Shown: piece after piece, positions 6,563-6,890 of the stretch
Numbering within the stretch: position 1 is the stretch's first letter
Layout: every line of letters begins with the position of its first letter
Virus genome (UHGV): UHGV-1688096
Reading direction: 5' to 3' (one strand)
Length of the DNA: 10,974 nucleotides
Source of the DNA: a virus
Made by a program: the position numbers and the translations under genes
The notes under the pieces: model-generated
What the model was told of the DNA's origin: nothing
The model's database searches: none
What the model saw: only the letters and a program-made list of their open reading frames with translations

Positions 6563-6859
6563 ATGGAATTTCTGATAGTTTTTGTTGTTGTTTTGGTCAT
6601 CATTCTTTTTGTTTTGCTAAGCATTAGCAAAAAGCTATCTCAAATGATTGAACATAGCTCTAATCGCGCAAAAGAAGAAGAGCATCTAATTGATATAAAA
6701 GAGATTCTCTCTGATATAAAAATCACATTAGATGAAATAAAATACACAACAGATCTAATTGAACAGTATAAAATACCAACCCCAAACGAGAGAAAAGCAA
6801 TAGATCAATATCGTATTGACTTAGAAATCGACGAAATGCTAAGCAATAGAAAGGACTAA
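6563..6859 (+). CDS. Small single-pass membrane protein (98 aa), candidate lysogen-expressed exclusion/abortive-infection factor
   Basis: ORF with GGAGG SD 4 nt before the ATG; N-terminal hydrophobic helix EFLIVFVVVLVIILFVLLSI followed by a charged, heptad-like K/E/D/I-rich tail; markedly AT-rich compared with flanking genes; followed directly by an intrinsic terminator. Confidence 0.7.
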   Translation: MEFLIVFVVVLVIILFVLLSISKKLSQMIEHSSNRAKEEEHLIDIKEILSDIKITLDEIKYTTDLIEQYKIPTPNERKAIDQYRIDLEIDEMLSNRKD

Positions 6860-6862
6860 AAA

Positions 6863-6890
6863 CACCCGGCCTCAGCGCCGGGTTTTTCTT
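6863..6890 (+). terminator. Rho-independent terminator after the cI operon
   Basis: Stem CCCGGC (6865-6870) / GCCGGG (6877-6882) with 6 nt loop, followed by TTTTT (6883-6887). Confidence 0.7.

What the first reader, a model, noticed from the sequence alone, without database searches (positions are those of the whole stretch)
6563..6890. AT-rich single-pass membrane protein immediately downstream of cI, in the rexAB-equivalent slot
A 98 aa ORF with a strong SD, an N-terminal transmembrane helix and a charged helical tail sits between cI and OL/pL, co-oriented with cI and closed by its own intrinsic terminator. Its base composition is visibly more AT-rich than the surrounding phage genes, suggesting separate acquisition. 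In lambdoid phages this slot holds lysogen-expressed exclusion or abortive-infection genes (lambda rexAB is the textbook case). I recognise no named family, so it is a candidate uncharacterised prophage defence or superinfection-exclusion determinant.
Basis: partly seen in the sequence, partly recalled or inferred. Interest (0 to 1): 0.8.

Follow-up and report, generated by a model that had tools for sequence, protein, structure and literature searches.

The report
Small membrane protein riding behind cI
A real, conserved 98-residue membrane-anchored protein of unknown function sits directly behind the prophage repressor gene; it is a good but untested candidate for a prophage gene that protects its host from other phages.

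Summary
ORF 6563-6859 (+) follows cI (5815-6522) by 40 nt. It has a GGAGG Shine-Dalgarno (SD) site, an N-terminal transmembrane (TM) segment and an acidic three-helix tail, and it ends at a hairpin plus T-run (6864-6887). It lies between the OR and OL operators. Its GC is 30.6% against 46.0% for the rest, the lowest in the window.

It is a real gene (dN/dS about 0.16) and belongs to a small uncharacterised family. It matches phrog_18389 ("unknown function") but no Pfam, NCBIfam, PADLOC, PDB or BFVD entry. The family shares a C-terminal motif, IKYxTDxIExYKLPxxxERxxIDQxRIDxEI.

In 10 of 10 distinct lambdoid contexts the gene directly follows an S24 cI-type repressor (gap 1-54 nt) and ends in a terminator-like hairpin. 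Those repressors share only 18-64% identity. Conversely, the same cI occurs with other cargo or none.

It is therefore a mobile cassette dedicated to the 3' end of the cI operon, the known RexAB/BstA hotspot. Charge distribution in all 19 members predicts N-out/C-in topology, so the conserved domain would be cytoplasmic.

A defence or exclusion function is plausible (about 0.45) but untested, and no homology supports it. The finding is a sound experimental candidate rather than a surprise.

The parts
5741..5803 (.). OR: three 14-bp operator palindromes (ATAACNNNNGTTAT) between cro and cI; the cI promoter (pRM-equivalent) must lie here but was not mapped
   Evidence: perfect matches at 5741, 5766, 5790; 0.31 expected by chance in the whole window
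5815..6522 (+). cI-type repressor, 235 aa (HTH_3 + Peptidase_S24); first gene of the inferred operon
   Evidence: Peptidase_S24 E=1.4e-17; phrog_4 E=4.5e-53
6554..6558 (+). Shine-Dalgarno GGAGG, 4 nt before the ATG, within the 40-nt cI-ORF spacer (6523-6562), which has no convincing promoter
   Evidence: the promoter scan found only a 9/12 match inside the cI 3' end (6488-6516)
6563..6859 (+). 98-aa ORF, member of an uncharacterised family (phrog_18389)
   Evidence: dN/dS 0.16-0.18 against Citrobacter-type copies
6569..6625 (+). codons 3-21: transmembrane segment; predicted N-out/C-in
   Evidence: no K/R before the TM and 1-3 K/R after it in all 19 family members; AF2 helix 2-38
6737..6841 (+). 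codons 59-93: conserved family motif IKYxTDxIExYKLPxxxERxxIDQxRIDxEIDxML (invariant Y69, P72, D81, E88); helix-turn-helix hairpin (AF2 helices 45-68 and 74-96)
6864..6887 (+). intrinsic terminator: 7-bp G+C-rich stem, 6-nt loop, T-run. An A-run lies 5' of it, so it also reads as a terminator on the minus strand. It is conserved together with the ORF in other loci and is the tImm-equivalent that insulates pL/N from cI-operon read-through
7058..7099 (+). OL operators (7058-7071 with 1 mismatch, 7083-7096 perfect) overlapping a pL-like promoter (TTGACC-17-TATCTT, 7071-7099)
7294..7566 (+). N antiterminator (90 aa), first gene of the pL operon; it marks the far boundary of the slot
   Evidence: PF25694 E=7.7e-16; phrog_271 E=3.2e-34

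Best explanation
What is shown. The ORF is a real protein-coding gene under purifying selection. It and its terminator form a mobile cassette that sits at the 3' end of the cI gene in many different lambdoid immunity regions.

What is inferred from the anatomy. There is no room for a promoter (gaps as short as 1-15 nt) and there is a terminator right after the stop codon. The gene is therefore transcribed with cI from the repressor promoters, so it is made in the lysogen, like lambda rexAB and BTP1 bstA. The product is inserted in the inner membrane by its N-terminal helix. Only about 2 residues face outside, and the acidic 76-residue helical tail lies in the cytoplasm. The heptad-patterned helix 2 and the conserved Y-K-L-P turn and helix 3 form a membrane-proximal hairpin with a conserved acidic face (D81, E88).

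What is proposed and not shown. The protein protects the lysogen against heterologous superinfecting phages by acting at the cytoplasmic face of the inner membrane. One possibility is that it binds a component of the incoming phage's genome-entry or early machinery, or the host inner-membrane protein that the phage uses, and so blocks productive entry (exclusion). The other is that it oligomerises through its TM and heptad helices when it senses a phage product and compromises the membrane (abortive infection). I rate exclusion or interference slightly above abortive infection. It is a single 98-aa protein with no separate sensor or effector domain and no self-immunity element that I could see.
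For: Real gene: dN/dS is 0.16-0.18. Full-length homologs are found down to 23-31% identity.

Position: it lies directly 3' of an S24 repressor and 5' of N in all ten distinct lambdoid contexts examined (window; L004/L005; L006/L007; L008; L012; L014; L016; L017; L018/L019; L020/L021). This holds although cI identity between the loci is only 18-64%.

Operon logic: gaps are 1-54 nt. A hairpin plus T-run follows the stop in 10 of 11 loci tabulated; L017 has a hairpin without a T-run.

Cassette behaviour: the same cI occurs with other cargo or none.

Membrane topology: no K/R before the TM and 1-3 K/R after it in 19 of 19 members, with an acidic tail.

Structure: mean pLDDT 80.6, three helices.

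Alternative cargo behind the same cI matches the PADLOC defence candidate PDC-S43 (E=7e-42).

Retention: the gene is intact in 98 of 99 complete E. coli genomes that carry it, including a decaying P22-like prophage in O26:H11 strain H19.
Against: There is no experimental evidence of any kind. There is no homology to any characterised defence or exclusion protein. PADLOC gives only an insignificant TM-only ZorB hit (E=0.009), PHROGs gives no exclusion family, and there are no structural neighbours.

The accession is not found in the literature or in the DefensePredictor supplements.

To my knowledge, most small membrane exclusion proteins expose their functional domain to the periplasm, whereas this one is predicted to face the cytoplasm.

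Expression in the lysogen is inferred, not measured.

The family is rare: about 1.8% of complete E. coli genomes and 1 of 50,697 phage records. Its most distant members lie outside any recognisable lambdoid context.

Guilt by position is weak evidence, because the slot also holds genes of unknown or non-defence function.
Confidence: 0.45

Rival explanations
1. It serves the phage's own lysis-lysogeny control. In this reading it is a membrane-tethered acidic helical hairpin made together with cI. It would sequester or modulate a regulator or protease that affects establishment, maintenance or induction of lysogeny. Candidates include a basic early protein, an antirepressor, or membrane-bound FtsH/HflKC, which control cII and cIII.
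For: Linkage to cI is unusually strict across at least nine repressor types, tighter than expected for a free-moving cargo gene. It would be co-expressed with cI from both establishment and maintenance promoters (inference). The tail is acidic and has a conserved face. All close contexts are cII/cro/N-type lambdoid immunity regions.
Confidence: 0.2
2. It is a lysogenic-conversion factor for host physiology unrelated to phages, for example envelope or stress tolerance, or modulation of a host inner-membrane transporter or signalling protein.
For: It is a lysogen-expressed small membrane protein. It is retained intact in a degraded prophage across many O26:H11 STEC genomes. To my knowledge, many small inner-membrane proteins act by modulating larger membrane proteins.
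Against: No homology points to such a role. The strict positional tie to cI in active-looking lambdoid immunity regions is more typical of phage-phage conflict genes. It is rare in E. coli overall.
Confidence: 0.15
3. It is a toxic small membrane peptide acting as a prophage-stabilising (addiction-like) element, or the ORF is a passenger and the selected part of the cassette is the terminator that insulates pL/N from cI-operon read-through.
For: The N-terminus is very hydrophobic and rich in beta-branched residues. The terminator is conserved together with the ORF, and some terminator is functionally necessary at this position (inference from lambda tImm).
Against: No antitoxin partner: the convergent phrog_3975 gene is present only in a subset of loci and absent from the window. 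Purifying selection and a strongly conserved soluble C-terminal motif are not explained by a mere terminator carrier or a simple membrane poison. Phages with empty slots still separate cI from pL.
Confidence: 0.1
4. It is a chance ORF in AT-rich spacer DNA.
For: It is short, AT-rich and universally annotated as hypothetical.
Against: dN/dS is 0.16-0.18 with dS of 0.78-0.86. Full-length homologs with conserved architecture extend down to about 23-31% identity. An SD-like sequence is present in most loci. AF2 pLDDT is 80.6.
Confidence: 0.02

Closest known systems
Lambda RexA/RexB (abortive infection, cI-rexA-rexB operon)
   Same: Same slot (between cI and OL/pL), same orientation, closed by a terminator before pL. 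Transcription with cI is established for rexAB and inferred here. Both have a membrane component.
   Different: RexAB is a two-gene system, with RexA as a soluble sensor and RexB as a multi-pass (reported 4-TM) membrane protein (my knowledge; PMC8585504 calls RexB an ion channel activated by RexA). Here there is one 98-aa single-pass protein. There is no sequence similarity (no Rex family in the Pfam or PADLOC hits).
BstA of Salmonella prophage BTP1 (PMC8585504)
   Same: The family is conspicuously located directly downstream of diverse prophage repressors. It is presumed to share the repressor promoter, has its own Rho-independent terminator, and is a single gene.
   Different: BstA is a much larger soluble protein that localises to phage replication sites and has a DNA self-immunity element (aba). 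The 98-aa protein is membrane-anchored and unrelated in sequence (no shared family). No aba-like element was looked for or seen.
Small membrane superinfection-exclusion proteins (T4 Imm/Sp, HK97 gp15, P22 SieA, lactococcal Sie2009)
   Same: Small, prophage- or phage-encoded proteins anchored in the inner membrane by an N-terminal hydrophobic segment. Sie2009-type genes also sit next to the repressor (my knowledge).
   Different: No homology: no exclusion PHROG at E<=1. The predicted topology puts the conserved domain in the cytoplasm, not the periplasm.
Morons (Juhala/Hendrix sense; PMC3594210)
   Same: The base composition differs from the surrounding phage genes. The gene is present or absent between otherwise near-identical phages, and it has its own terminator.
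   Different: There is no promoter of its own. It extends the cI operon instead of being an autonomous transcription unit (gaps 1-54 nt). Its position is fixed rather than scattered.
phrog_18389
   Same: Full-length match, E=5e-62; this is the same family.
   Different: The PHROG carries no function, so membership adds no functional information.

Membership tests
phrog_18389 (unknown function) | Full-length profile match | tested here: met
   E=5e-62, residues 1-98 against profile positions 1-98 of 98
Lambda RexAB | Position between cI and OL/pL, co-oriented with cI | tested here: met
Lambda RexAB | Two genes: a soluble RexA-like protein plus a multi-pass RexB-like membrane protein | tested here: not met
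   Single 98-aa ORF with one TM segment; no second ORF before the terminator
Lambda RexAB | Sequence homology to RexA or RexB | tested here: not met
   No Rex family among the Pfam, PHROG or PADLOC hits
BstA | Located directly downstream of the prophage repressor, with its own terminator | tested here: met
   criterion taken from PMC8585504
BstA | Homology to the BstA protein (a large soluble protein) | tested here: not met
   98 aa and membrane-anchored; no BstA or related model in the PADLOC or Pfam hits
Moron | Base composition distinct from the flanking phage genes | tested here: met
   30.6% against 46.0%; the lowest-GC window; all loci
Moron | Present or absent between closely related phages | tested here: met
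Moron | Own promoter (autonomous transcription unit) | tested here: not met
   Gaps to cI of 1-54 nt; only a weak 9/12 promoter-like match inside cI. A consensus scan cannot exclude a weak promoter.
Moron | Own terminator | tested here: met
Known membrane Sie proteins (Imm, Sp, SieA, SieB, gp15, Cor, Llp) | Sequence or profile homology | tested here: not met
   No exclusion-annotated PHROG at E<=1; nothing in Pfam or NCBIfam
Known membrane Sie proteins | Blocks DNA entry of superinfecting phage | not testable with these tools
   Needs an EOP assay, adsorption assay and DNA-entry assay
Zorya ZorB (MotB-like) | Significant match to a ZorB model including the peptidoglycan-binding domain, with ZorA as partner | tested here: not met
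   E=0.009, 13.5 bits, covering the TM and juxtamembrane residues 4-56 only; no ZorA neighbour
phi29 p16.7-like membrane-anchored replication organiser (phrog_6682) | Profile match and a C-terminal DNA-binding domain | tested here: not met
   E=0.1 only; the tail is acidic (net -5), which does not fit DNA binding

The most novel reading that the evidence does not exclude
The family is a new, minimal (about 100 aa), single-gene anti-phage system that belongs specifically to the repressor operon of lambdoid prophages. It would be a membrane-tethered cytoplasmic acidic hairpin that captures or mis-localises a conserved early or entry protein of superinfecting phages at the inner membrane. That mechanism resembles neither the RexAB type nor the periplasmic exclusion type.
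Probability: 0.25. Interest if true: 0.7.

Novelty: new member of a known kind. Interest (0 to 1): 0.45.

Why it matters
If the protein does protect lysogens, it would add a very small, genetically tractable defence or exclusion family. The invariant residues Y69, P72, D81 and E88 are ready targets for mutagenesis. It would also give a second example, after BstA, of a family that has specialised in riding the repressor operon across many immunity types. That would strengthen the idea that the 3' end of cI is a dedicated expression site for conflict genes. The gene is present in about 2% of complete E. coli genomes, including many O26:H11 STEC strains and one Stx1a phage, so it could affect phage-therapy host range or the spread of Stx phages. 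If it turns out to be regulatory, it would be an unrecognised accessory of the lambdoid switch.

Tried and rejected
- Homology to any named family. Pfam, NCBIfam and PADLOC gave only sub-threshold hits driven by the TM or coiled-coil segment: DUF5385, DUF4446, MscL, ZorB. All were rejected.
- Profile search of PDB sequences. It returned only designed coiled coils, a compositional effect.
- Rfam on 5400-7700: nothing found.
- The idea that the window's 40-nt cI-ORF spacer is a relic of a lambda-type cI 3' end. It looked suggestive in alignment A4 but is not significant: 203 of 2,000 shuffles score as well. Rejected.
- The idea that the cassette is a two-gene unit with the convergent phrog_3975 gene seen in Citrobacter-type loci. 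That gene is absent from the window and from L014 and L016-L021. Rejected.
- The idea that the gene belongs to the Stx1 phage H-19B of strain H19. In H19 it lies in a degraded P22-like prophage with no stx gene annotated in the stretch shown.
- The search for related loci with the broad alignment failed because no stretch was conserved enough.
- Literature. No paper mentions the accession, and it is not in the DefensePredictor supplements. Brenes & Laub 2025 (PMID 40409266), the most relevant prophage-defence screen, is not held in the library. I could not check whether that screen tested this protein.

Full report
**1. The observation**

The window is the early region of a lambdoid prophage. 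From left to right it holds the replication genes, then cII (5092-5457, -) and cro (5480-5725, -). Next come cI (5815-6522, +), the ORF in question (6563-6859, +) and N (7294-7566, +), followed by recombination genes.

- **ORF and translation start.** The ORF encodes 98 aa. GGAGG lies at 6554-6558, 4 nt before the ATG.
- **Membrane segment.** Residues 3-21 are extremely hydrophobic, with a Kyte-Doolittle 19-residue mean of 3.67. They are followed by KK and an acidic 76-residue tail with net charge -5.
- **Terminator.** Five nt after the stop there is a 7-bp G+C-rich hairpin with a T-run, spanning 6864-6887.
- **Operators.** Three perfect 14-bp palindromes ATAACNNNNGTTAT lie between cro and cI (5741-5803). 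Two more lie at 7058-7096, overlapping a pL-like promoter. Chance would give 0.31 matches.
- **Base composition.** GC is 30.6% in the ORF and 46.0% elsewhere. The lowest-GC 297-bp window in the whole sequence starts at 6566.

**2. It is a real gene and belongs to a family**

- **Close homologs.** The product matches phrog_18389 (unknown function) over its full length, E=5e-62. A word-indexed search of 5.8 billion proteins found only close relatives in E. coli and Citrobacter, at 72-100% identity.
- **Distant homologs.** An exhaustive HMM search of 1.84 billion representatives found 14 more distant members, 94-126 aa long, all matching end to end.
- **Shared architecture.** The 19-sequence alignment shows an N-terminal TM segment, a variable linker, a heptad-patterned helix (L42, I45, L49, I52, L56, I59, T63, I66) and a strongly conserved C-terminal motif, IKYxTDxIExYKLPxxxERxxIDQxRIDxEIDxML. 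Residues Y69, P72, D81 and E88 are invariant.
- **Selection.** Between the window copy and the Citrobacter-type copies, dN/dS is 0.16-0.18 at dS of about 0.8.
- **Structure.** AlphaFold2 on the close-homolog alignment gives mean pLDDT 80.6 and three helices: 2-38, 45-68 and 74-96.
- **Topology.** All 19 members have no K/R before the TM segment, 1-3 K/R just after it, and an acidic tail. By the positive-inside rule this predicts N-out/C-in, so the conserved domain would be cytoplasmic. This is an inference; no dedicated topology predictor was available.

**3. No known relatives**

- Pfam, NCBIfam and PADLOC give only sub-threshold hits driven by the TM or coiled-coil segment.
- A profile search of PDB sequences returns only designed coiled coils.
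- Every source names the protein 'hypothetical'. One IMG label, 'PerM permease', is a TM-only artefact.
- No paper in the library contains the accession, and it is not in the DefensePredictor supplements.

**4. Context is the most informative result**

I recovered the genomic neighbourhood of family members spanning 34-100% identity to the window protein. The contexts were:

- the window itself;
- Citrobacter freundii and related contigs (L004-L008);
- L012 (protein 61-65% identical);
- L014 (46-47%);
- L016 (44%);
- L017 (38-39%);
- L018/L019 (37%);
- L020/L021 (34-39%).

In every one the gene directly follows an HTH plus Peptidase_S24 repressor and precedes N. The gap to the repressor is 1-54 nt. 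In all but one locus the stop codon is followed by a hairpin and a T-run; L017 has a hairpin but no T-run.

The repressors are 216-272 aa long and share only 18-64% identity with one another. The window's cI is 20-39% identical to the others. The Cro proteins belong to different families. The small protein is far better conserved than the repressor it follows, for example 76% against 23% for the window versus L004.

DNA alignment shows that the conserved block starts just before the SD, includes the terminator hairpin, and ends about 40 nt after it.

The converse also holds:

- The same cI (98% protein identity over the annotated SH2026Stx1 product) is followed in phage SH2026Stx1 and in E. 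coli 2014C-3061 by three unrelated ORFs.
- PA28-type phages (cI DNA 79% identical) have an empty slot.

In complete E. coli genomes, 99 of 5,426 carry the cassette. All copies are chromosomal, 98 sit with this cI, and one is disrupted by an IS3. Carriers include many O26:H11 STEC strains. In strain H19 the module lies in a decaying P22-like prophage, not an Stx phage.

Among 50,697 phage records only Stx1a_10051 has any family member.

The two most distant members examined (Pelagicoccus and an unidentified contig) are not in recognisable lambdoid contexts.

**5. Interpretation**

Three steps are inferred from the anatomy:

- (i) The gene has no room for its own promoter and is therefore co-transcribed with cI. 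This is the arrangement known for lambda cI-rexA-rexB and presumed for BTP1 cI-bstA (PMC8585504).
- (ii) The terminator it carries acts like lambda tImm, keeping cI-operon transcription out of pL and N.
- (iii) The protein is a single-pass inner-membrane protein whose conserved helical hairpin faces the cytoplasm.

On that basis, and because the cI-N interval is a recognised mosaic hotspot for lysogen-expressed abortive-infection systems, the best-supported function is protection of the lysogen against other phages at the cytoplasmic face of the inner membrane. One alternative cargo behind the same cI matches the PADLOC candidate PDC-S43, which adds slightly to this.

I put this at about 0.45. 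No step of the function has been tested, nothing homologous is known, and the predicted cytoplasmic orientation differs from most small exclusion proteins.

The rivals are:

- a role in the phage's own lysis-lysogeny control (0.2). The strict linkage to cI favours it. The dispensability shown by phages with the same cI and no cassette counts against it.
- a host-physiology conversion factor (0.15);
- a toxic or stabilising peptide, or a mere terminator carrier (0.1);
- a chance ORF (0.02), effectively refuted.

**6. Comparison with the known**

It works like the RexAB and BstA class in position and in the logic of expression, but it is not a member of either family. The homology and architecture tests were run and not met. 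It fits three of the four classical moron criteria and fails 'own promoter'. It is a member of phrog_18389, which carries no function.

**7. Novelty and verdict**

The kind of thing is well known: a lysogen-expressed accessory gene in the cI-N hotspot. The protein family is uncharacterised. Its dedication to the 3' end of cI across many immunity types is, as far as I could find, undescribed.

It is a sound candidate for a simple experiment, not a surprise to specialists. Interest: 0.45.

Noticed in passing
L001:3322-3350 (phage SH2026Stx1, just after its cI stop): Immediately after the stop of its own cI, SH2026Stx1 carries an out-of-frame relic encoding QWPEETFG*, which is the C-terminus of the lambda-type cI seen in the Citrobacter loci. 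It aligns 22/25 nt with the real cI 3' end of L004, and 0 of 2,000 shuffles score as well. This is a recombination scar, suggesting that the cI 3' end is the junction at which slot cargo is swapped between immunity types.
   Followed up: partly
L004:5324-5530, L006:5324-5548, L008:5324-5548, L012:4733-4960 (minus strand): A small convergent gene (68-75 aa, phrog_3975, unknown function) follows the cassette. In L004, L006 and L008 it abuts the hairpin, which reads as a terminator in both directions. It is absent from the window and from the more divergent loci.
   Followed up: partly
L001:3362-3703 and L011:3246-3587: The DUF3024 protein that occupies the same slot behind a near-identical cI matches the PADLOC defence candidate PDC-S43 (E=7e-42). 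Two further ORFs follow it: a 177-aa ORF (phrog_2602) and a 44-aa ORF, neither with a PADLOC hit. This alternative cargo may itself be a multi-gene unit.
   Followed up: no
window 6884-7000: A stretch of about 120 nt between the terminator and OL has no credible ORF. It is strongly C-rich and G-poor on the + strand (GC skew -0.39 to -0.30). No Rfam match. Function unknown; it could be a remnant of displaced cargo or part of the OL-distal region.
   Followed up: no
window 7146-7186: A nutL-like site lies upstream of N: a boxA-like GCTCTTTAACA (7146-7156) and a boxB-like hairpin TCCCGC-CGAAAT-GCGGGA (7169-7186). Related phages (HK620, mEpX2, HK630) annotate a Nut boxA in the homologous stretch.
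   Followed up: partly
L009:1767-3197 (E. coli strain 3CM): An IS3-family element is inserted inside the small gene. It leaves a 75-aa C-terminal fragment that is annotated as a separate protein. This is the only disrupted copy among 99 genomes.
   Followed up: no
L023 (E. coli O26:H11 strain H19, 3161325-3201701): The cI plus small-gene module sits in a degraded P22-like prophage (integrase with an internal stop, IS600 in the nin region, several pseudogenes). The immunity region is nevertheless intact across many O26:H11 genomes.
   Followed up: partly
window 5092-5457 and 5480-5725: The mechanical ORFs for cII (121 aa) and cro (81 aa) are longer than the annotated homologs (92-99 aa and 74 aa). 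The CII domain starts at residue 30. The true starts are therefore probably internal ATGs.
   Followed up: no
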